From positions 288,001 through 352,000 of the forward strand of contig CP000066.1 of assembly GCA_000002445.1 (NCBI GenBank): DNA of 64,000 nt. Reading direction: 5' to 3'. Position 1 is the stretch's first letter, and each line of letters starts with the position of its first letter. A program made the position numbers and the translations under genes. Below the pieces are notes generated by a model that worked only from the letters and a program-made list of their open reading frames with translations, was not told the origin of the DNA and ran no database searches. Below are positions 20 to 58,042 of this stretch, in pieces. This stretch comes from Trypanosoma brucei. Taxonomy: Eukaryota.

Positions 20-3000
20 ATGGACCAACCGGAGCGTCTTGTGGAATCACTTGTAGATTCTTCATGGGTGGTTTGTGGGACTGAGTTATTTGCTGATGAA
101 CTTAAGGACTTGGAACATTTAGAAGAGATGGATGAGAAGCTAGCATCACAACAGCAGCAACAACAACATCGGAGCGAAGTCGTCGATGGTTGCGATGTCT
201 TGCGGGAGAGTTATGATGGGAGCGCGTGGAGTCAGGAAAGACGGACCACTAGCAAGCCAAGGAAATCTCCAACGTTCTCAAAGCAAAAGTTGCCAGACCG
301 CCCGAGTTCGCGGGCGTCCACTGGTGGACAAGCTAAGGAGCCTTCCAGTATATGTTCAACAGCTGCTTCCGTTCGCGTGAAGACAGAAAAAGTAGTAAAT
401 GTTGCGGAGAATCGAGGGCAGGATCTATATAAGCAGATGTTACAAGCGCTAAAACAGCAGATACGACAGGTACGCGAAGAGGCAGATCTTCGTCGTTCAG
501 CCACGCGTCGGCAACTGCGTTTTTTTAGTGCACGCAACGTTGATGAATACTTACCCAGTGAAATCCTTCGGGGGGCCCCGGAAAAGCATTACCAGTGGAG
601 GAGTGAAGTTTCTGGTTTAGATTATGTTACTGAAGATGTATGGAGGAGGACACCGCACCAAGATGATGCAGCATCGTCTCCGTCCCCTAGTGTTACTGAT
701 AGTCGATCAGCGCTTACCATACTGCAGACGCCTTATGGGAGTGGCACAAGCTACCCTGCAATTTGTGATTTCACCATCGATCCCATAAACTTCATGGCGG
801 AAATTAATGTAGCACTGGAGAAGAATCATGGAGTTCGTATCGTCACTAAGGAGTCACAGCCGCCCGCAGAAGAACCAGATCCATCTATGTTGCTCTCCAA
901 TCAGTTATGTGAGATGTTAGAACACCAGCCGGGGCCCATGATGGACTTGAAGGAACCAACGTGGTTCAACACTGTGCTGCCTCCAATAGCATCAAAAATG
1001 GAGGAGAAATGGGTTGTCGACAATAGTGAAGGCCAAATGCCATGGAGTGGCGTTGGGCCGACGAAAAAGGTGAAGGGTGGTGGTGTGGAGAGACTACAAC
1101 TAGCATTTCCCCCACTCCCAGCCCGTGCTGGTCAAGATAGCAGGGTAGCTTCTGGTGGGACAGCGACCAAGAGAGCGGCTGTGGGGACTACCACTGATGG
1201 TTGCAACTCAAGCAAATACACGGGAGCTGGGCGCAGTGCAATCGGTGATATGGATAAACTTGTACGATGCTCTGCCACAGACGACACTGTGCGGCTGCGG
1301 GCGAAGGCGGGGACGAAGACAACTAGGACGGTGCGCTTCACTAACCACTGTACGAGGCACCTCGCCATGCGATTACAACCGGCCACGCATCCGTGGTTAA
1401 AATATTCCATTGTGAAGGCGTCCGCGGGGAAGCCGCTGGCGGCGTCGTCAGGTCTGTGTACAGCATTGGACAAGCCAGTTACCTTCTTTGAGTATATTGA
1501 CGTGATGATAACGTTTGAACCCCAAACGGTCAGGGAGCCTTCGATAGCAGAGGTTTTACGGATTGGGTATTGCGTAGAGCTAAATATCCGAAGTGGCGAG
1601 GGGGCACAGTGGCATTTTCTCGAAGTGACTGTTCTATGCGATACACAACAACCTGAATTTCGCCTCGTTCCGTTGGAAAAGGTTGCAGATCGGCGCGAGG
1701 AGGCTGCGGACACATCCGCAGAAGATTCGTCAAGAACAACACGTGTGAACTCGAGGGCCTCCAAAAAGGATTACATCACGACGTGTGAGTTTCCATGTAC
1801 TTTTGTGTTCCATTCCTTCACCAAATACTTCCAGCTGGAAAACATTGGGTCCGATGCCATCATTTCGTTAGGTACCAGTTCCTCTTGCTTCAAGATTACT
1901 TCACCCTTAGAGGAGGACATCGAAATACCCGGTGGTAGCACCGTGGAGATCGCTGTTTGCTTTTGCCCATTGAGCGAGGCTCACTATGACGCAGAGCAAT
2001 TGTTTGTTACTGTGAGGGACGAAAGAAACGGTCCTGTCTTGGCCAAACACACGTTTAACCTTCGGGGGGAAAGTGCCCTTCCCCACATTGACCTCTTGCG
2101 AATAGGACCCATGGAACTGAGTCCATTCGAAGGGGACGAGTGCAGTAGTGTGCCGCAGTATTTCCTCCCTGAAACCACATTGGGGGAGGAGGTAGTTGAG
2201 GAGGTGGTTGTACGCAACAATTGCCCAATTGCAGTAGAGTACTTTTGGCAGGTTGCCACTGTTGGTGGTGGACCCTCTGGAGCGCAACTGCAAATAACGC
2301 CGTGTCGTGGCGAGTTTCTTCCAAAACAAGACACTAGATTCACGGTGACTCTAAAACCTTCCGTGGTGGAGCCGTTCGCTGCTGTTCTCAACCTCTTCCT
2401 TGAGGGTCTTCCTAGGATTCCCATAGAGGGTGAACTAGGGAGGACTGTGGACAGCTGTGGCCCCCCGTTGCTTCCCCCACAAAATGACTCACGCATGGCG
2501 GAGTTAGATGCAACAAAGGGGGTGTTGAGGCTCTTATCTCGCTCTAGGATGGTTCCTGCTTTACCAGAGCCCGAACAATTGCGCCGACTCATGGACCCGT
2601 GTGGTGCGCTAAAGAACATTATGAAACCGCAATCGAGCGAGTGTAGTGGCGTCTTTGCGAGCGGATTCTACCTTTTTGCCGATCCTAGTCCTCCGCGTCT
2701 CATGCTTATTCCCGATCGTTTTGATGAGGGGTTGGAATGCCTCATTAACGGTGAGAACGCACGTCGCGTGGTGTTGCGAAACACTTCCCACCGGCTACTG
2801 CACTTCATCTTTGACCCGACGCCACAGGAATGCCCAGTGGGTGTGTGTTTTCCAGCCACATATGACCCAGAAACTGTGGAAGTGAGGTTTGAGCCGCGGG
2901 CAGGACGTGTGCCCCCACAAGGTTCTGTTCCTATCACATTCTTCTACACATTGAAGGAGGTTGGACATCACAGTATGTCGGTAAACTGTTACATCCCGGA

Positions 3001-50220: not shown

Positions 50221-52581
50221 ATGCAACGACGTAAGCGCTCCCGCACCCATTCAGTGGGTGATGAAGTATCGAAGAACTCGGGGTCAAAATACGTGCCGCA
50301 GCCGGAGAAGATCGCTTCCGCCGCTTCAGGGGATACCTTGGAGCGGGAGGATTCAATAAAGTTGAGTAATACAGTTCTGCGTTCTTTGGCAATTGCCCCT
50401 GATGTTTCTGGTATTCGATGCGTTGCTGTGCATCCGTCAGAGCGAGAGATTGTTCTGGCTCGTGAAAATGGCTCTCTGATCTTGTACGCCATCGAACGAT
50501 TCCAAAACGTCACTCACTTCCAAATGTTGCGTTCCACTGGTGGTCGCAAGAGTCGTACCATTACGCGGTTACGTTACCTAACTCGCGGCACGGGCAATAG
50601 TAAAGGGATTTCCACTCGTACCGCTCCTCTACTACTGGCTTCTTACCTATCCGGCCAGTTCGTTGTTTACTGCGGTGACACACTTGCTCCTCTTTGTGTT
50701 CATCAGCGGACTGGTGGAGCTATTTGGGATTTCTGTATCACAGACCACACCGTCTATGCCGCAAAGGCTGACGGGTCGTGGCACCAGTTACACGTGGAGT
50801 ACAGCAGCAATGTTGCTGGTGCGGCTGGGCCTCGCGCTCCGACCGTTCCGGCGCTGACGCTCAAGCGGATCATACCAAAGGTGCCAGGCGCGGATCGTGC
50901 GATCAGTGTCTGCTGCTCACGGCAGTGGGGAATTGTCGCTGGAACAGATGACGCCGGAAATGTTGTGGCATGGCGTCTTCCCCGACCCGAAAGTACGGAC
51001 GACCGGGACGAAGAGACGATCAATCAGGACAACAGAGGAGGTGAAGGGAACACGGGAACGGCTGGGGATAGGCCGCAGAGTCTAACAGAGCATGAGGCCC
51101 TTTGGACGAGTCGCTTGCCTGAAGGAATGGCGCTTTGTTGTACCATCAGCACCAGTAGTAAAAACGCAGCTCCGGTTGTAGCGGTTGGCACTTCGGTTGG
51201 CGATGTGGTGATATTTGAAGCAACCCGTGGTCAAGCGGTGAAAACATTCACACACCACAAAGGCCCCATTAGCTCGTTGGTGAGCTGTCAGGAATACGTC
51301 AGTGGCAATCAGTGCGGGGTGATTTATGCGTCTGGTTGGCACGAGTCTCTCCGTTCGTACCGATGTAGCGTTGAGGGTGAGTGGCGCCCCGCTGAGGTGA
51401 AACGCCGCACACATCACCATGAAACCAGCGAACTGGCGCTCCTTCACCGCCATCAGATCATACTCTCTGCCTCACGGGATGCAACCGTTATGTATTCCCC
51501 AACTCAGTGTTTGTTCTCTGCACCGGCCATGTACCTTCACACCACGTGTCAGAAACTTGCTTTTGCGAAGGAGAGGAATGTCTTGCTGCAGACACGCAGT
51601 GGCCGCATCGAAGGGTTCTGTACCGATGCCGCATTACGTCGTTGGTCCCCGCTATTTGGTTACGAAGTGAAGGGTAAATTTCACTTGCAGGGACTGTGGT
51701 GCGACGATTCGCTCGGCCACATCGTTTTCTCCACAGACGAGCGTGTCTCTTTATTGTGCTGCCGCTGGCGCAATGGACTGGAGGGGAGTCTCGCGCTTAA
51801 GCGTATTGAAGAGGTGAGGAGTCTGCCTGCCAAATACGGCATTATCGACTGCTGCTTTGTCAACACCAAAACAAACAAAAGTTGCTATCTGCTTTTCGAC
51901 GACGCGATTGTTCAGATTTCCCTCACGAAAGCGTACCCAGTGGTGACCACGCAGCTGGTACAGAGGGATGGAGACCCCGATGAAATTGACATATGTCCAA
52001 CTCGTTTCATGTGGTTAGAAAATCGGGCAGATGTTGGTGAAGAGGAGGGGACTAATCATACCAAACTTATGGTGTACGGTCGCCGCGGGTGGCTTTCGTG
52101 TAGCACTGCGGTGGATGGCACCATTGACACCAGCACTTTCACGGTACACCGCGAGGTGATGCAAATGGTGGAGTCGGTACCCCATTTGTCACAATCGCAA
52201 GGAAGGGTGGAGCACACTATTGTTGCACTTGCAAATGGTGAGCGCTATGTTGCAGGTATTGGAACTTCTCAACTGCTTCAACTTCCGCGCTCACTTCCAC
52301 ACGACACGCGGTTTGTTGCTCTGTTGCCACCGAGACGCCGGCGAAACGACTCGGGCAACGAAGTTAGTGAAGGGTTGGGCAGTGGGCCTCGCTTCCTCGC
52401 CACCTTTTCACGTGGGTTATTGTGGGTTACGAGGAACTCGTGGTGCATGTTGAGCCGGTGCTCCGCAGAGGGTGCGTTTGTTTTGCGTGGAAACAAGAAA
52501 GTGCTAATTGTGGTGCGCAACCTGGAGGGAACGCTGGAAGTGTTGCCACCCTGTTGGAGGCTGCGACGCTTCGGTAACTGA
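50221..52581 (+). CDS. WD40-repeat protein, UTP4/cirhin-like (SSU processome) candidate.
   Basis: N-terminal SGIRCVAVHPSEREIVLARENGSLILYAI parallels UTP4 N-terminal SGIRCVAY......LAVSRTDG.VEIYNL. Multiple WD-like blades follow (VGTSVGDVVIFE, ILSASRDATVMY). 786 aa. Confidence 0.5.
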   Translation: MQRRKRSRTHSVGDEVSKNSGSKYVPQPEKIASAASGDTLEREDSIKLSNTVLRSLAIAPDVSGIRCVAVHPSEREIVLARENGSLILYAIERFQNVTHFQMLRSTGGRKSRTITRLRYLTRGTGNSKGISTRTAPLLLASYLSGQFVVYCGDTLAPLCVHQRTGGAIWDFCITDHTVYAAKADGSWHQLHVEYSSNVAGAAGPRAPTVPALTLKRIIPKVPGADRAISVCCSRQWGIVAGTDDAGNVVAWRLPRPESTDDRDEETINQDNRGGEGNTGTAGDRPQSLTEHEALWTSRLPEGMALCCTISTSSKNAAPVVAVGTSVGDVVIFEATRGQAVKTFTHHKGPISSLVSCQEYVSGNQCGVIYASGWHESLRSYRCSVEGEWRPAEVKRRTHHHETSELALLHRHQIILSASRDATVMYSPTQCLFSAPAMYLHTTCQKLAFAKERNVLLQTRSGRIEGFCTDAALRRWSPLFGYEVKGKFHLQGLWCDDSLGHIVFSTDERVSLLCCRWRNGLEGSLALKRIEEVRSLPAKYGIIDCCFVNTKTNKSCYLLFDDAIVQISLTKAYPVVTTQLVQRDGDPDEIDICPTRFMWLENRADVGEEEGTNHTKLMVYGRRGWLSCSTAVDGTIDTSTFTVHREVMQMVESVPHLSQSQGRVEHTIVALANGERYVAGIGTSQLLQLPRSLPHDTRFVALLPPRRRRNDSGNEVSEGLGSGPRFLATFSRGLLWVTRNSWCMLSRCSAEGAFVLRGNKKVLIVVRNLEGTLEVLPPCWRLRRFGN

Positions 52582-53469
52582 GCAATTTGCACAAATACGT
52601 ATATCAACGTCTGTCTGTGGGTGCATGTTTGTGTGTTCGAATGGAGAGAGATGAAGGACCGCTGCCAAAAGCAGTGAAACGCCCGAGTATTATTCCAAAC
52701 AGTGAAGTCCCAGATGCGGATGCAGGGAGGTAAAACAGAAGAGGGGCAACATACGCTGCTACGGAAGCAATGTTTGTGGTGACAACCGTCAGCAATGCGG
52801 GTTGAAGACGAGAGCACGCGGGTGTGAGTAACATCAACGTTGCGGTATCTTTCCTTCCACTTTCTTCTTTTAGATCCCTTAAGGATAGTGCTTGTGCGAC
52901 TTCCCATTACTGCTTGAATTAGGGGAAAGCAGTACTGAAAGGGCTGGGTGATAACGGGAAGGCACCTTAGCAAGAAGAATGAGGGAAGGAGCGTAAATAA
53001 AAACCAAACGTAAACAGGTAAATAATTACGGTAGTTCGGTTAAAAGTCCCGCAGGCTCAAGAGCGGCCTGTTGTGTGGGGATTAAAAAAGGAAAAAGGGA
53101 GCGGTAATACAAAGTTTCTGCTCTGCTGGTGTTTCGCTGTTGTTCTGACCTGCAGAGGTGCAATATGCTGCGCGGCCCCCATTTCCCCACATGGCTTTAC
53201 CTTTCTCTTATCTGCTTGAATTCTGCCTCTCGTTATTTCATACACCCCGTCTCATTGTTTTCTCCGTATCCTTTGGCATTTTGTTGTCTCATATTATCCA
53301 CGGTAACATCGATGTGGAAAAGGTGGGCTGGGAGGGGCTGGGGTTGCTTCGGTGTGAGCGTACAGTAGACGTTGCGTTGGCCACTTCTTCTCAACTGCGT
53401 TCGCGTGCGCAGCTATAAAGCTACCCCGTCCCTCTTTTTTATTTTATTCGTCACAGTTACGGACCGTTG

Positions 53470-55335
53470 ATGTGCTCTGTTGCACCGTTAGCTTCACACG
53501 GTACGGGATGTCCTGTCGCCGCTTGTATCGTGCGCTGCAAAAGACACCTTTCAGCTGTCGTGTGCCGCTTACGGAAGCTCAAAAGGTTGCGAAGTGGCCG
53601 CAACGTAACAACTTTCAACGCCAACTTTTACGAAGCGGTGGCTGAAGAGCGGCGCTACGGAGCATTTACGGATGGTGAACACTTTGACGACTGTACACTG
53701 CACCTGCGGCGGTGGATGTTGCGTCGTGTGACGTGTGCACCGACTTTCGCTACCTCTGTTACGGGTAGTGTAGAAACGAATGAAGTGCTAACAATGTGGA
53801 CAAAGTTGAGTGATGGTGGAGTTGTGTGGAATATTTTGCAAAAAGAGCAGCAGTGTTACGCAGTGCACTTCATAGGAGAGCTCTCATCTGATTTTGTTAA
53901 GGAGTTATTTAATTGTACCGTTGACGAATATCGCTCTGGTAGCCACAATGGTGTTGTGTTGTGTATTGTGCAGCAGTTGCGTGTGTACTCTGAAGCATGT
54001 TGTAGACCGGAGGATTTCCCACCACCTCTTTACGAGCTACGCGCTGCTGCCTTACGGACACAAGTTCTCCATCAGTGTGGCAGTGCCGGCGCGTTTCCCA
54101 CTTCTACAAAGTTGGGGAAACGGTCTGAGAATGGGTCGGACTGCTTTACGTTCTCGGAGTTGTTCGCTGGCATGGGTATGTTTCGTGTTGGGCTCGAGCG
54201 AATTGGTGGGAAGTGTGTCTTTGCGGTTGAGTGCGCACCTCACGCACGTAGTGTGTATCACGCTAACCACCATTTGCCAAGGCGTAATAGTTGTGGAAAT
54301 GAGGCATTACCAGCTACTCGTCGCCCTGTTCCACTCGTCGGCGATATCACCACTGTCCCTTCGCACTACTTCCCACACCACGATGTGTTAACAGCTGGTT
54401 TTCCGTGCCAAAGTTTCGCCAAAGCAGGATCCGCCACTGGTTTGCGCGATACAAAAGGGCAACTTTTTTATGAGGTCGTGCGAGTGATACAAAGCGCCAA
54501 GCCAAAGGGGTTCCTACTGGAAAACGTAGAAAATGTACTACATGTTGGGGGTGAAGATGGAGGCGAGGCCAACGCAAGCGAGGAATCGCAACATCACTTG
54601 AAGTTTATACTTGACGCGTTGCGGTCACCTTCGCCGGACAGTAATGAAGCGCTTACTTACGTCGTCGCGTATCGGGTTATTGATGGTGCTCTTGTGACCC
54701 CGCAGAGACGAAGACGTGCCTATTTTGTAGGAATCAGAGCTGATTTACCACGTGCAAACGCGAGGGATGTTGGTGCTGTGCTTGACGATGCTGTGCGACA
54801 GCTACGAGCATACAGAGATATGCACCCGGAAGCACCACGTTGCGTGAGGGATATCCTTGATTCCACGGGTGACACGAGCGAGATGGGGGAGTTCAATCAG
54901 TCTTTAGTATCGCTGCGTCTCACGGAGTCACAGTGGGCAGCAGTTCAGCGCAGTGTAACTTTCCGCCGATCCCCTTCGTGGCGCGTGTCTGATCTCAACG
55001 GGTTGGCACGGACTCTCATGGGAAGCTACCGCGCCAGCTATCAACTCTACTCGGAGTTTGTTCCTCTGCCTGACGGTGGGCCGCCCTTTCGCTTTTACTC
55101 AATTCGTGAATGTGCCCGACTTCAGGGCATTCCCGACTGGTTCTCCTTTAATGTTGTCTGTTATCCACTGTCTCTGGAGAAGTGCAACGGTAGGAGCGGT
55201 CCCTCTCATGGAAGTGATAAGGGCTGTGAAAGGTGTGTACCTGTGGGGGCGGTATACAAACTAATTGGAAATGCAGTGAATCCCATTGTTGTTGAGTGCT
55301 TGGGTCGTGCACTTTTAAGTCGTATCCTTAAGTAA
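53470..55335 (+). CDS. DMT: C5 DNA cytosine methyltransferase (DNMT6-type), with the full set of catalytic motifs after an N-terminal extension of about 225 aa.
   Basis: Motif I F.G.G (FTFSELFAGMGMFRVG). Motif IV PCQ (LTAGFPCQSFAKAG). Motif VI ENV (GFLLENVENV). Motif VIII Q.R.R (TPQRRRRAYFVGIR). Motif IX (RFYSIRECARLQGIPDWFSF). Motif X GN.V (KLIGNAVNPIVVE). Order I-IV-VI-VIII-TRD-IX-X as in eukaryotic and bacterial m5C methyltransferases. ATG at 53470; the track start at 53467 is TTG. Confidence 0.85.
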   Translation: MCSVAPLASHGTGCPVAACIVRCKRHLSAVVCRLRKLKRLRSGRNVTTFNANFYEAVAEERRYGAFTDGEHFDDCTLHLRRWMLRRVTCAPTFATSVTGSVETNEVLTMWTKLSDGGVVWNILQKEQQCYAVHFIGELSSDFVKELFNCTVDEYRSGSHNGVVLCIVQQLRVYSEACCRPEDFPPPLYELRAAALRTQVLHQCGSAGAFPTSTKLGKRSENGSDCFTFSELFAGMGMFRVGLERIGGKCVFAVECAPHARSVYHANHHLPRRNSCGNEALPATRRPVPLVGDITTVPSHYFPHHDVLTAGFPCQSFAKAGSATGLRDTKGQLFYEVVRVIQSAKPKGFLLENVENVLHVGGEDGGEANASEESQHHLKFILDALRSPSPDSNEALTYVVAYRVIDGALVTPQRRRRAYFVGIRADLPRANARDVGAVLDDAVRQLRAYRDMHPEAPRCVRDILDSTGDTSEMGEFNQSLVSLRLTESQWAAVQRSVTFRRSPSWRVSDLNGLARTLMGSYRASYQLYSEFVPLPDGGPPFRFYSIRECARLQGIPDWFSFNVVCYPLSLEKCNGRSGPSHGSDKGCERCVPVGAVYKLIGNAVNPIVVECLGRALLSRILK

Positions 55336-55636: not shown

Positions 55637-55978
55637 ATGCCACCAAAGAAGGGAGGGAAGGACACCAAGCAGGCGCCCAAGAAGGGCAAGATGGAGAACC
55701 TCAACAAGGGTGCCAAGAAGGCTGCAAAGAAGTGGTCTAAGGGCCGTACCCGTGAGGCACTTCAGAACGCCGTCATGTTCGACAAGGAAACGATGGACAA
55801 ACTCATGAAGGAAGTACCGAAGTACAAGGTTATCACACCATCCATCATCAGTGACCGTCTGAAGATCTCCGTGGCTCTTGCCGGGAAGGGGCTCCAGCAC
55901 TTGTGCAGACAGGGGCTCATTCGGTTGGTTTCATGCAGCAGCAAGTTTCGCGTTTACACGCGCGCTGCTACCGCATAA
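55637..55978 (+). CDS. RPS25: 40S ribosomal protein S25 (eS25).
   Basis: MPPKKGGKDTKQAPKKGK...KKWSKGRTREALQNAVMFDKETMDKLMKEVPKYKVITPSIISDRLKI...RQGLIRLVS is a textbook eS25. 113 aa. Confidence 0.9.
   Translation: MPPKKGGKDTKQAPKKGKMENLNKGAKKAAKKWSKGRTREALQNAVMFDKETMDKLMKEVPKYKVITPSIISDRLKISVALAGKGLQHLCRQGLIRLVSCSSKFRVYTRAATA

Positions 55979-56458: not shown

Positions 56459-58042
<1,584 letters not shown>

What the first reader, a model, noticed from the sequence alone, without database searches (positions are those of the whole stretch)
53470..55335. Complete C5-cytosine DNA methyltransferase with a long N-terminal extension
All canonical m5C-MTase motifs (I F.G.G, IV PCQ with catalytic Cys, VI ENV, VIII Q.R.R, IX, X GN.V) are present and in canonical order, so the enzyme looks catalytically competent. 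Kinetoplastids are better known for base J than for 5mC, and they carry a single DNMT6-class enzyme whose in vivo substrate (DNA versus tRNA, as for DNMT2) is still debated. The first 225 or so residues carry no MTase motif and have no obvious domain (Cys-rich start MMCSVAPLASHGTGCPVAACIVRCKRH). This region could be a targeting or regulatory module.
Basis: partly seen in the sequence, partly recalled or inferred. Interest (0 to 1): 0.55.

Follow-up and report, generated by a model that had tools for sequence, protein, structure and literature searches.

The report
Known trypanosome DNMT6 methyltransferase gene
This is the already published single cytosine-5 methyltransferase gene of Trypanosoma brucei (Tb927.3.1360, DNMT6 class); its long N-terminal part is translated and is a conserved folded domain shared by DNMT6 enzymes of many protists and fungi, which I did not find described in the papers I searched.

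Summary
An ORF at 53470-55335 (+) encodes 621 aa and carries every m5C-methyltransferase motif in canonical order. The protein is identical to T. brucei TREU927 XP_843730.1 (Tb927.3.1360, TbDMT/TbDNMT). Its ten motifs were published in 2008 and it has been placed in DNMT6, so the gene is already known.

Published spliced-leader mapping puts the main acceptor 166 nt upstream of ATG 53470. Residues 12-50 are conserved across trypanosomatids almost as well as the catalytic domain.

What I add concerns the N-terminal 205 aa. They match no Pfam family, but AlphaFold2 predicts a confident ferredoxin-like beta-alpha-beta-beta-alpha-beta domain with a trypanosomatid-specific insert. The same domain sits directly in front of the methyltransferase in DNMT6 proteins of chytrids, green algae, haptophytes and an ichthyosporean. 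Its signature is G.PVGAFVV...LR...WLK.G.NVT / AVHV / W.PGLRV.S..C. Bacterial relatives lack it. Recent papers say DNMT6 has no companion domains. The "Cys-rich start" is specific to T. brucei and is not conserved.

The substrate is still open. Literature reports a cytoplasmic protein and no genomic 5mC. This, with the conserved TRD and the basic N-domain, favours a conserved non-chromatin substrate, probably RNA. That is inference only.

The parts
53176..53299 (+). Pyrimidine-rich tract upstream of the mapped trans-splice acceptor
   Evidence: Read directly from the sequence. It lies immediately 5' of the predominant acceptor listed by Kolev 2010. Boundaries are approximate.
53304..53469 (+). 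5'UTR of 166 nt, from the predominant spliced-leader addition site to the start codon
   Evidence: Kolev et al. 2010, Table S12: for Tb927.3.1360 the predominant SAS is chr3:341304 with a 5'UTR of 166 nt; the averaged SAS is 341311 (158.6 nt), with dispersion 8.6. The window offset of 288000 was verified on the start codons of Tb927.3.1350.1370 and .1380. The dinucleotide before 53304 is GG in this strain's sequence, which is unexplained.
53312..53368 (+). Upstream ORF of 18 codons inside the 5'UTR, out of frame with the main ORF
   Evidence: Function was not tested.
53470..55335 (+). CDS of Tb927.3.1360 (TbDMT/TbDNMT, DNMT6 family), 621 aa plus stop
   Evidence: Identical to XP_843730.1 (P0061) of T. 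brucei brucei TREU927.
53503..53619 (+). N-domain, first half (aa 12-50): strand, helix, strand. Signature CPVAACIV...L..VV.RLR...RLRSGRNVTTF. Very basic (10 K/R, 0 D/E).
   Evidence: P15, R35, L40, V46, T47 and F49 are invariant in 14 trypanosomatid sequences. L40 and T47 remain invariant when non-trypanosomatid DNMT6 proteins are added. pLDDT is 79-95. Identity to other trypanosomatids is 38-54%. Charge.
53620..53850 (+). Trypanosomatid-specific insert in the N-domain (aa 51-127); variable in length and sequence
   Evidence: Absent from the compact N-domains of chytrids, algae and Creolimax. Identity is 6-23%. pLDDT is mixed, 49-86.
53851..54084 (+). N-domain, second half (aa 128-205): strand (YAVHF), helix, strand, LRVYSEACC, and a long helix at 185-202
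   Evidence: A131, H133, G136, R171 and C177 are invariant in trypanosomatids. A131, H133 and R171 are invariant family-wide. pLDDT is 86-94 apart from one loop.
54085..54144 (+). Unconserved, low-confidence linker (aa 206-225)
   Evidence: pLDDT is below 50 for residues 210-218. Identity is 0-21%.
54145..55332 (+). C5-cytosine methyltransferase domain (aa 226-621) with motifs I-X in canonical order
54406..54408 (+). Codon of the catalytic nucleophile Cys313 (motif IV, GFPCQ)
54739..55089 (+). Target-recognition domain (aa 424-540) between motifs VIII and IX, with the conserved stretch L.LT..QW.AV.RS.TFR..P.WR..DL.G.ARTLMGSYR.SYQLYSEFVP
   Evidence: 22 invariant positions at 482-532 among trypanosomatids. 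The signature is found in 72 of 81 proteins with the N-domain and 13 of 109 other relatives.

Best explanation
**Identity (shown).** The feature is Tb927.3.1360, the single DNMT6-family C5-cytosine methyltransferase of Trypanosoma brucei (TbDMT/TbDNMT). It is translated from ATG 53470.

**Architecture (shown by sequence comparison and structure prediction).** The protein has two domains.
- Residues about 12-205 form a ferredoxin-like alpha/beta domain, here called the DNMT6 N-domain. It is found directly upstream of the methyltransferase in eukaryotic DNMT6 proteins from several supergroups. In trypanosomatids it carries a lineage-specific insert of about 75 aa.
- Residues 226-621 form a complete, monomeric, bacterial-type m5C methyltransferase, with both the catalytic and the target-recognition subdomains.

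**Chemistry (inferred from family knowledge).** Cys313 attacks C6 of a flipped-out cytosine. Glu351 and Arg414/Arg416 activate the base. The methyl group comes from SAM held by motif I, E254 and D292.

**Substrate and role of the N-domain (inferred, not shown).** The enzyme most likely acts in the cytoplasm on one conserved nucleic-acid target, with RNA more likely than DNA. The basic N-domain probably works as a substrate-recognition or docking module next to the conserved TRD.

My confidence is about 0.97 for the identity, about 0.85 for the two-domain architecture, and about 0.4 for the RNA substrate and recognition role.
For: **Identity**
- The protein is 100% identical to XP_843730.1.
- Window coordinates map to chr3:288001-352000, and four gene starts agree.
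- Tb927.3.1360 is named TbDNMT and placed in DNMT6 in PMC7463849.

**Start codon**
- The predominant SL acceptor lies 166 nt upstream of the ATG.
- The next in-frame Met codons are at 83 and 109. Starting there would delete the conserved block at aa 12-50.

**N-domain**
- Invariant residues across 14 trypanosomatids and across 23 sequences that include non-trypanosomatids.
- A compact form occurs in Creolimax, chytrids, Cymbomonas, Tetraselmis, Nephroselmis, Prymnesium and Diacronema.
- An exhaustive profile search of 1.84 billion representative proteins found it only in PF00145-bearing proteins.
- AF2 full length: pLDDT 82.8, pTM 0.88. N-terminal part alone: pLDDT 78.2, pTM 0.72, with identical secondary structure.

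**MTase domain**
-.

**Substrate inference**
- YFP-DMT is cytoplasmic and gives no ChIP signal (PMC8559703).
- Whole-genome bisulfite sequencing finds no 5mC in T. brucei or in L. donovani wild type, knock-out or overexpressor (PMC7463849).
- The TRD is strongly conserved across the clade, unlike the differing TRDs of its bacterial relatives.
- The first half of the N-domain has pI 11.6.
- A related subgroup carries zf-CCHC knuckles at the same N-terminal position.
Against: - No substrate has been demonstrated for any DNMT6.
- The known T. brucei tRNA m5C sites (C12, C34, C48-50, C60) can in principle be made by the seven NSUN-type enzymes, and the DNMT2 site C38 is unmethylated. So there is no orphan RNA m5C that requires DNMT6.
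- Militello 2008 reported 0.01% 5mC in T. brucei DNA (cited).
- The nearest solved structures and bacterial relatives are DNA methyltransferases, some of them fused to Vsr.
- T. brucei and T. vivax replace two residues that are invariant in 22 compact, non-trypanosomatid N-domains (G17A, K41R).
- I could not inspect the model coordinates, so how the N-domain contacts the MTase is unknown.
- I did not verify that diatom DNMT6 proteins, the founding members of the family, contain the N-domain.
Confidence: 0.6

Rival explanations
1. The enzyme is a genuine nuclear DNA methyltransferase that makes rare, site-specific 5mC. On this view the N-domain targets it to particular loci.
For: - The full set of DNA-MTase motifs is present, and the closest structures are M.HhaI and a Shigella putative DNA cytosine methylase.
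- Bacterial relatives include Vsr and HTH fusions typical of DNA modification systems.
- Militello 2008 reported 0.01% 5mC in T. brucei DNA (cited in PMC7463849).
Against: - Whole-genome bisulfite sequencing found no reproducible 5mC in T. brucei. It also found none in L. donovani wild type, DNMT6 knock-out or 64-copy overexpressor.
- YFP-tagged DMT is cytoplasmic with no ChIP-seq signal.
- No chromatin-reader domain is present.
Confidence: 0.12
2. The N-domain is an allosteric small-molecule sensor in the manner of ACT, PII or NDK-like ferredoxin folds. It would regulate the methyltransferase rather than bind the substrate.
For: - A small set of conserved polar residues (K/R41, T47, H133, R171) could form a phosphate or nucleotide pocket.
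Against: - RNA-binding ferredoxin-like proteins (uS10, S6, mL48, EF-G domains, TiaS, Trm5) score the same.
- No ligand-binding motif of ACT, PII or NDK is present, and Pfam finds none of these families.
Confidence: 0.2
3. The N-terminal extension is an annotation artefact, and the real protein starts further downstream.
For: Trypanosome start codons are often mis-called, and one T. b. equiperdum record (RHW73599.1) has a different, shorter N-terminus.
Against: - The SL acceptor is 166 nt upstream of ATG 53470.
- There is no in-frame ATG between the upstream stop and 53470, and the next ones are at Met83 and Met109.
- Residues 12-50 are 38-54% identical across trypanosomatids, against 6-23% for the insert.
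- The motif in residues 12-50 recurs in chytrid, algal and ichthyosporean DNMT6 proteins.
- The equiperdum variant is a frameshift of the first 12 residues only.
Confidence: 0.02
4. The gene is a dispensable relic of an ancient bacterial acquisition and has no physiological substrate.
For: - The L. donovani knock-out is viable.
- The gene appears in a list of lateral-transfer candidates (PMC4711719).
- No product has been detected.
Against: - All catalytic and cofactor residues, the TRD and the N-domain core are invariant across trypanosomatids.
- The two-domain architecture is kept in distant eukaryotes.
- Together these indicate sustained purifying selection.
Confidence: 0.06

Closest known systems
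TbDMT / TbDNMT (Tb927.3.1360) and LdDNMT (LdBPK_251230), the trypanosomatid DNMT6 enzymes (Militello 2008; Cuypers 2020, PMC7463849)
   Same: It is the same gene. The protein is identical to XP_843730.1. The L. donovani protein labelled DNMT6 is the 38%-identical orthologue.
   Different: Nothing differs at the gene level. The published descriptions that I could read cover only the ten MTase motifs, not the conserved N-terminal domain.
Bacterial type II m5C DNA methyltransferases: M.HhaI (10mh) and a Shigella putative DNA cytosine methylase (3lx6/3me5)
   Different: These enzymes lack the ferredoxin-like N-domain. They methylate duplex DNA in restriction-modification or Dcm/Vsr contexts. DNMT6 has extra loops after motifs II, VI and IX.
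DNMT2/TRDMT1, the tRNA-Asp C38 methyltransferase
   Different: They are different clades: no DNMT2 appears among the PDB sequence hits at E<=0.01. DNMT2 has no N-terminal domain. DNMT6 has no CFT motif in its TRD. C38 is not methylated in T. brucei tRNA.
Ferredoxin-like N-terminal modules of RNA-modifying enzymes (Trm5 D1 / Pfam Trm5_N; ferredoxin-like domain of TiaS)
   Same: A small alpha/beta domain placed N-terminal to a Rossmann-fold methyltransferase. Block 1 has a similar strand-helix-strand pattern.

Membership tests
C5-cytosine methyltransferase superfamily (Pfam PF00145) | Motif I FxGxG plus acidic motif II/III residues for SAM binding | tested here: met
   F232-A-G234-M-G236, E254 and D292, all invariant in orthologues.
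C5-cytosine methyltransferase superfamily (Pfam PF00145) | Motif IV PCQ with the catalytic Cys, motif VI ENV, motif VIII QxRxR | tested here: met
   P312-C313-Q314, E351-N-V and Q412/R414/R416. They align with the M.HhaI motifs.
C5-cytosine methyltransferase superfamily (Pfam PF00145) | TRD between motifs VIII and IX, motifs IX and X at the C-terminus, non-permuted order | tested here: met
C5-cytosine methyltransferase superfamily (Pfam PF00145) | Methyl transfer to cytosine C5 (enzymatic activity) | not testable with these tools
Eukaryotic DNMT6 family | Placement in the DNMT6 clade of DNMT phylogenies | not tested
   I built no tree. Membership rests on identity with Tb927.3.1360, which published trees place in DNMT6 (PMC7463849). 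It also rests on best hits being trypanosomatid proteins, one of which a source labels DNMT6.
Eukaryotic DNMT6 family | No chromatin-associated companion domains (PMC9998398, PMC12344493) | tested here: met
   Pfam finds only PF00145. However, a conserved non-Pfam N-domain is present.
Eukaryotic DNMT6 family | Proposed here: N-domain signature (G.PVGAFVV...WLK.G.NVT / AVHV / W.PGLRV.S..C) directly upstream of motif I | tested here: met
   Present with two conservative changes, A17 for G and R41 for K. Found in 81 of 123 relatives that have an N-terminal region of at least 60 aa. Among the 42 that lack it are the relatives with a bacterial source name or an HTH or Vsr fusion. Not checked in diatom DNMT6.
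DNMT2/TRDMT1 | CFT motif in the TRD, no N-terminal extension, tRNA C38 methylation | tested here: not met
   No CFT in the TRD; the only CFT is at 225-227, before motif I. There is a 225-aa N-terminal region. C38 is unmethylated in T. brucei tRNA according to PMC11045063.
Trm5_N / Trm5 D1 domain (for the N-domain) | Significant sequence or structure match to Trm5 D1 | tested here: not met
ACT / PII / NDK-like ferredoxin-fold ligand-binding domains (for the N-domain) | Family-level sequence match or strong structural match | tested here: inconclusive

The most novel reading that the evidence does not exclude
The N-terminal about 100-aa core is a previously undescribed domain that defines DNMT6. 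It is ferredoxin-like, basic, and has conserved K/R, T, H and R residues. On this reading it recognises a conserved cytoplasmic RNA, or another non-chromatin nucleic acid. Acquiring it would have converted a bacterial DNA methyltransferase into a dedicated eukaryotic enzyme. This would explain why organisms that have only DNMT6 lack genomic 5mC.
Probability: 0.3. Interest if true: 0.6.

Novelty: already known. Interest (0 to 1): 0.33.

Why it matters
The gene itself adds nothing new. It is the published TbDMT, and the finding restates what is already annotated.

The useful by-product concerns DNMT6, which reviews call "poorly characterized" and lacking companion domains. I find instead a conserved, foldable N-terminal domain and a conserved TRD shared from trypanosomes to chytrids, green algae and haptophytes. 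This gives concrete handles for the open question of what DNMT6 methylates:
- a delta-N construct;
- point mutants at T47, H133 and R171;
- a domain profile for comparative genomics.

Trypanosomatids carry DNMT6 as their only DNMT, so they are the cleanest system in which to test these.

Tried and rejected
1. A word-indexed homologue search with the trypanosomatid N-terminal profile (A2) returned nothing at E<=0.001. Candidate selection was probably swamped by low-complexity words.
2. Foldseek against AFDB50 was not available, so I could not ask whether the N-domain occurs in other architectures.
3. The hypothesis that the N-domain is a Trm5/TYW2 D1-type domain came from memory of sequence patterns. 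It is not supported.
4. Profile searches of the N-domain against PDB sequences (A4, A6) gave only chance-level hits.
5. An exact-sequence contig look-up for the window protein found nothing. Identity was established through cluster members instead.
6. The supplements of Nilsson 2010 (spliced-leader trapping) held no entry for the gene. Table S12 of Kolev 2010 did.
7. Militello 2014 (PMC4004664) is not held. Its result, no C38 methylation, was taken from the same group's 2024 paper.
8. The bacterial promoter and terminator scan is irrelevant for a trypanosome.
9. The candidate polypyrimidine/AG acceptor 13 nt before the ATG (AG at 53455-53456) is not the predominant site in the published mapping.
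10. The C-terminal 277 aa of the fusion protein P0109 looked by eye like a 2OG-oxygenase HxD...H string. It hits nothing in Pfam or PDB.
Full report
**1. Observation**

The window has one long ORF at the stated place. It runs from ATG 53470 to the stop codon ending at 55335 on the + strand and encodes 621 aa. A eukaryotic ribosome would start at the ATG, so the protein begins MCSV. An in-frame TAA lies at 53416-53418.

Pfam PF00145 matches residues 226-562 at E=5.6e-45. NCBIfam TIGR00675 matches at 3e-44. The best sequence matches among solved structures are a Shigella putative DNA cytosine methylase (3me5/3lx6, about 2e-24) and M.HhaI (about 1e-23 to 1e-21).

All motifs are present in canonical order:
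- I: F232-A-G-M-G236
- II: E254
- III: G291-D-I-T
- IV: G-F-P-C313-Q
- VI: E351-N-V
- VIII: Q412-R-R414-R-R416
- TRD dipeptide: T515-L516
- IX: R546-ECARLQG
- X: G600-N-A-V

They are invariant in 14 trypanosomatid orthologues.

**2. Identity**

The protein is identical, residue for residue, to XP_843730.1 of T. brucei brucei TREU927. The window corresponds to chromosome 3, 288001-352000. The published splice-site coordinates plus 5'UTR lengths of Tb927.3.1350.1360.1370 and .1380 land exactly on the start codons at 50221, 53470, 55637 and 56483.

Tb927.3.1360 is TbDNMT/TbDMT. Cuypers et al. 2020 state that Militello et al. 2008 had already shown all ten conserved motifs. They place the trypanosomatid enzymes in DNMT6, as the only DNMT in most of these organisms (PMC7463849). 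The core of the finding is thus already known.

**3. Is the N-terminal extension translated?**

Kolev et al. 2010 (Table S12) list for Tb927.3.1360 a predominant splice acceptor at chr3:341304 with a 5'UTR of 166 nt. The averaged site is 341311 with dispersion 8.6. This is window 53304, upstream of ATG 53470.

There is no other in-frame ATG before Met83 and Met109. Starting at either would remove residues 12-50. Those residues are 38-54% identical between T. brucei and other trypanosomatids. The catalytic domain is 48-65% identical, and the insert and linker only 0-23%. The extension is therefore real coding sequence under selection.

**4. What the N-terminal region is**

No Pfam family matches it in any of 12 trypanosomatid sequences or 22 compact sequences from other eukaryotes. 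Profile searches against PDB sequences give nothing either.

Alignment shows three conserved blocks:
- Block 1, aa 12-50: consensus YP.GAFVV..K..L.PLV.RLR...RLKSGRNVT.F
- Block 2, aa 128-136: Y.AVHV.G
- Block 3, aa 163-178: VAY...LR.FS..CC

P15, R35, L40, V46, T47, F49, A131, H133, G136, R171 and C177 are invariant in trypanosomatids.

An exhaustive HMM search of 1.84 billion representative proteins with this profile found only 15 proteins. All of them carry PF00145. Two are not trypanosomatid. These two, together with other relatives, carry a compact version of about 100 aa of the same three blocks directly in front of motif I.

A further homologue search recovered the wider family:
- Chytrids: Cladochytrium, Chytriomyces, Irineochytrium, Blyttiomyces, Dinochytrium and others
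- Green algae: Cymbomonas, Tetraselmis, Nephroselmis
- Haptophytes: Prymnesium, Diacronema
- The ichthyosporean Creolimax

A local iterated profile search detects the domain in 81 of the 123 relatives that have at least 60 residues before motif I. Among the 42 without it are the relatives with a bacterial source name and those fused to HTH or Vsr domains.

The family consensus is G.PVGAFVV-x7-V...LR...WLK.G.NVTP ... AVHV ... L..G.A.W.PGLRV.S..C. G, K, A and R are invariant, and T and H nearly so.

AlphaFold2 gives a confident model. The full-length protein has pLDDT 82.8 and pTM 0.88. The N-terminal part alone has pLDDT 78.2 and pTM 0.72, with the same secondary structure. The conserved core is:
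- strand 16-21, helix 24-36, strand 46-49
- strand 129-135, helix 140-147, strand 163-168
- a long helix at 185-202

This is a beta-alpha-beta-beta-alpha-beta arrangement. Residues 51-127 form a trypanosomatid-specific insert, variable in length and sequence.

- PII, ACT, NDK, uS10/S6/mL48 and EF-G domains
- Best Foldseek E-value 0.19

I conclude that this is a ferredoxin-like domain with no identifiable relative. It is not in Pfam. It is at odds with the statements that DNMT6 proteins lack companion domains (PMC12344493), though these rest on searches for known domains. PMC9998398 reports only that chromatin-associated domains are absent, which my result does not contradict. De Mendoza 2018 also reports no additional known domains.

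C2, C14, C19, C23 and C32 are Y, F, S or other residues elsewhere, and only C177 is invariant.

**5. The catalytic half**

It is thus a complete monomeric bacterial-type m5C methyltransferase, including the TRD.

The TRD is unusually conserved. There are 22 invariant positions between residues 482 and 532 among trypanosomatids. The signature A.TL..SY...Y..SEFV occurs in 72 of 81 proteins with the N-domain but in only 13 of 109 other relatives. From general knowledge, restriction-modification enzymes vary their TRDs with sequence specificity. A TRD fixed across supergroups therefore suggests a single conserved target, as in DNMT2. This is an inference.

**6. How it most likely works**

The shown parts are the identity, the translated two-domain architecture and the intact catalytic machinery.

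The chemistry is inferred from the family. Cys313 adds to C6 of a flipped cytosine. Glu351, Arg414 and Arg416 activate the ring. SAM is held by motif I, E254 and D292.

Substrate:
- The literature reports no reproducible genomic 5mC in T. brucei. It also reports none in L. donovani wild type, knock-out or overexpressor.
- N-terminally YFP-tagged DMT is cytoplasmic with no ChIP-seq signal (PMC8559703).
- The first half of the N-domain is very basic: 10 K/R, no D/E, pI 11.6.
- A related subgroup of MTases carries zf-CCHC knuckles, which from general knowledge bind single-stranded nucleic acids, in the same N-terminal position.

I therefore favour a conserved cytoplasmic nucleic-acid substrate, RNA more likely than DNA, with the N-domain acting as a recognition or docking module. 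My probability for this is about 0.4.

Evidence against this view:
- No orphan RNA m5C points to DNMT6. T. brucei tRNA m5C sits at C12, C34, C48-50 and C60, not at the DNMT2 site C38, and seven NSUN-type enzymes exist.
- The closest relatives are DNA enzymes.
- The fold matches are equally compatible with a ligand-sensing role.

**7. Rivals**

| Rival | Probability |
|---|---|
| A true low-level DNA methyltransferase | 0.12 |
| N-domain as an allosteric small-molecule sensor | 0.2 (not exclusive of an RNA substrate) |
| Annotation artefact | 0.02 (effectively refuted) |
| Functionless relic | 0.06 (contradicted by the conservation pattern) |

**8. Comparison and novelty**

The added value is the family-wide N-domain and the conserved TRD. 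These are modest but concrete leads for the open DNMT6 substrate question.

I did not verify the domain in diatom, Micromonas, Emiliania or dinoflagellate DNMT6. I built no phylogeny. I could not inspect the model coordinates or search the AlphaFold database.

**9. Verdict**

Novelty is "already known", with an incremental new observation about the N-terminal domain. Interest is 0.33.

Noticed in passing
window 53302-53304: The published predominant spliced-leader acceptor of Tb927.3.1360 (chr3:341304) is preceded by GG in this TREU927 sequence. The six neighbouring genes I checked all have AG immediately before the listed coordinate. This may be a strain polymorphism, a mapping ambiguity or a non-AG acceptor.
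   Followed up: partly
window 53312-53368: An 18-codon upstream ORF (MWKRWAGRGWGCFGVSVQ) starts 8 nt downstream of the predominant acceptor. It lies inside the 166-nt 5'UTR and is out of frame with the main ORF. It might dampen translation of the methyltransferase.
   Followed up: no
window 53424-53456: A second short pyrimidine tract is followed by AG at 53455-53456, only 13 nt before the ATG. It looks like a splice acceptor but is not the predominant site in the published mapping.
   Followed up: partly
window 54172-54174 and 54508-54510 (codons 235 and 347): The TREU927 allele has M235 (the second x of FxGxG). T. b. gambiense and the two Logan alleles have I235, as do 11 of the 13 other trypanosomatids (the other two have V and L). 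T. equiperdum keeps M235. TREU927 alone has G347; T. equiperdum, T. b. gambiense and the Logan alleles have A347. Among other trypanosomatids G347 is shared by T. vivax, A is the commonest residue, and Strigomonas has C and P0007 has T. Of 9 differences from T. b. gambiense, 8 lie in the catalytic half and 1 (D115G) in the N-terminal insert.
   Followed up: partly
P0063 (T. b. equiperdum RHW73599.1), residues 1-12: This 608-aa database version has a frameshifted N-terminus (MSCRRLYRALQR...) that then rejoins the normal sequence. It is probably an assembly or annotation artefact, not a different start.
   Followed up: partly
window 55159-55236 (aa 564-589): A cysteine cluster, C564-x7-C572-x13-C586-x2-C589, sits in the loop between motifs IX and X. 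It looks like a possible metal site, but it is absent from T. vivax and other orthologues and has low pLDDT.
   Followed up: partly
P0120, P0122, P0127, P0131, P0135 (metagenomic / Logan proteins): These relatives of about 415-430 aa have an MTase with a DNMT6-like TRD. They carry an N-terminal zf-CCHC zinc knuckle (P0120 also shows a second CCHC-like motif by eye) where DNMT6 has its N-domain.
   Followed up: partly
P0109 (1061 aa), P0124 and P0132 (about 800 aa): Multi-enzyme fusions occur. P0109 has an FkbM-type methyltransferase, then the N-domain, then the C5-MTase, then a 280-aa C-terminal region with an HxD...H-like string that matches nothing in Pfam or PDB. P0124 and P0132 have the C5-MTase followed by a Methyltransf_16 (lysine methyltransferase) domain. 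The local profile search did not detect the N-domain in them, although the P0124 N-terminus looks like a divergent version by eye.
   Followed up: partly
window 50221-52581, 55637-55978, 56483-58042: The neighbours on the same strand are Tb927.3.1350 (786 aa), a 113-aa protein that looks like ribosomal protein S25 (Tb927.3.1370) and the ATP synthase beta subunit (Tb927.3.1380). All large ORFs of the window are on the + strand, as expected for one polycistronic unit.
   Followed up: partly
window 1-64000: There are no tRNA genes and no Rfam family at gathering threshold anywhere in the 64-kb window.
   Followed up: yes
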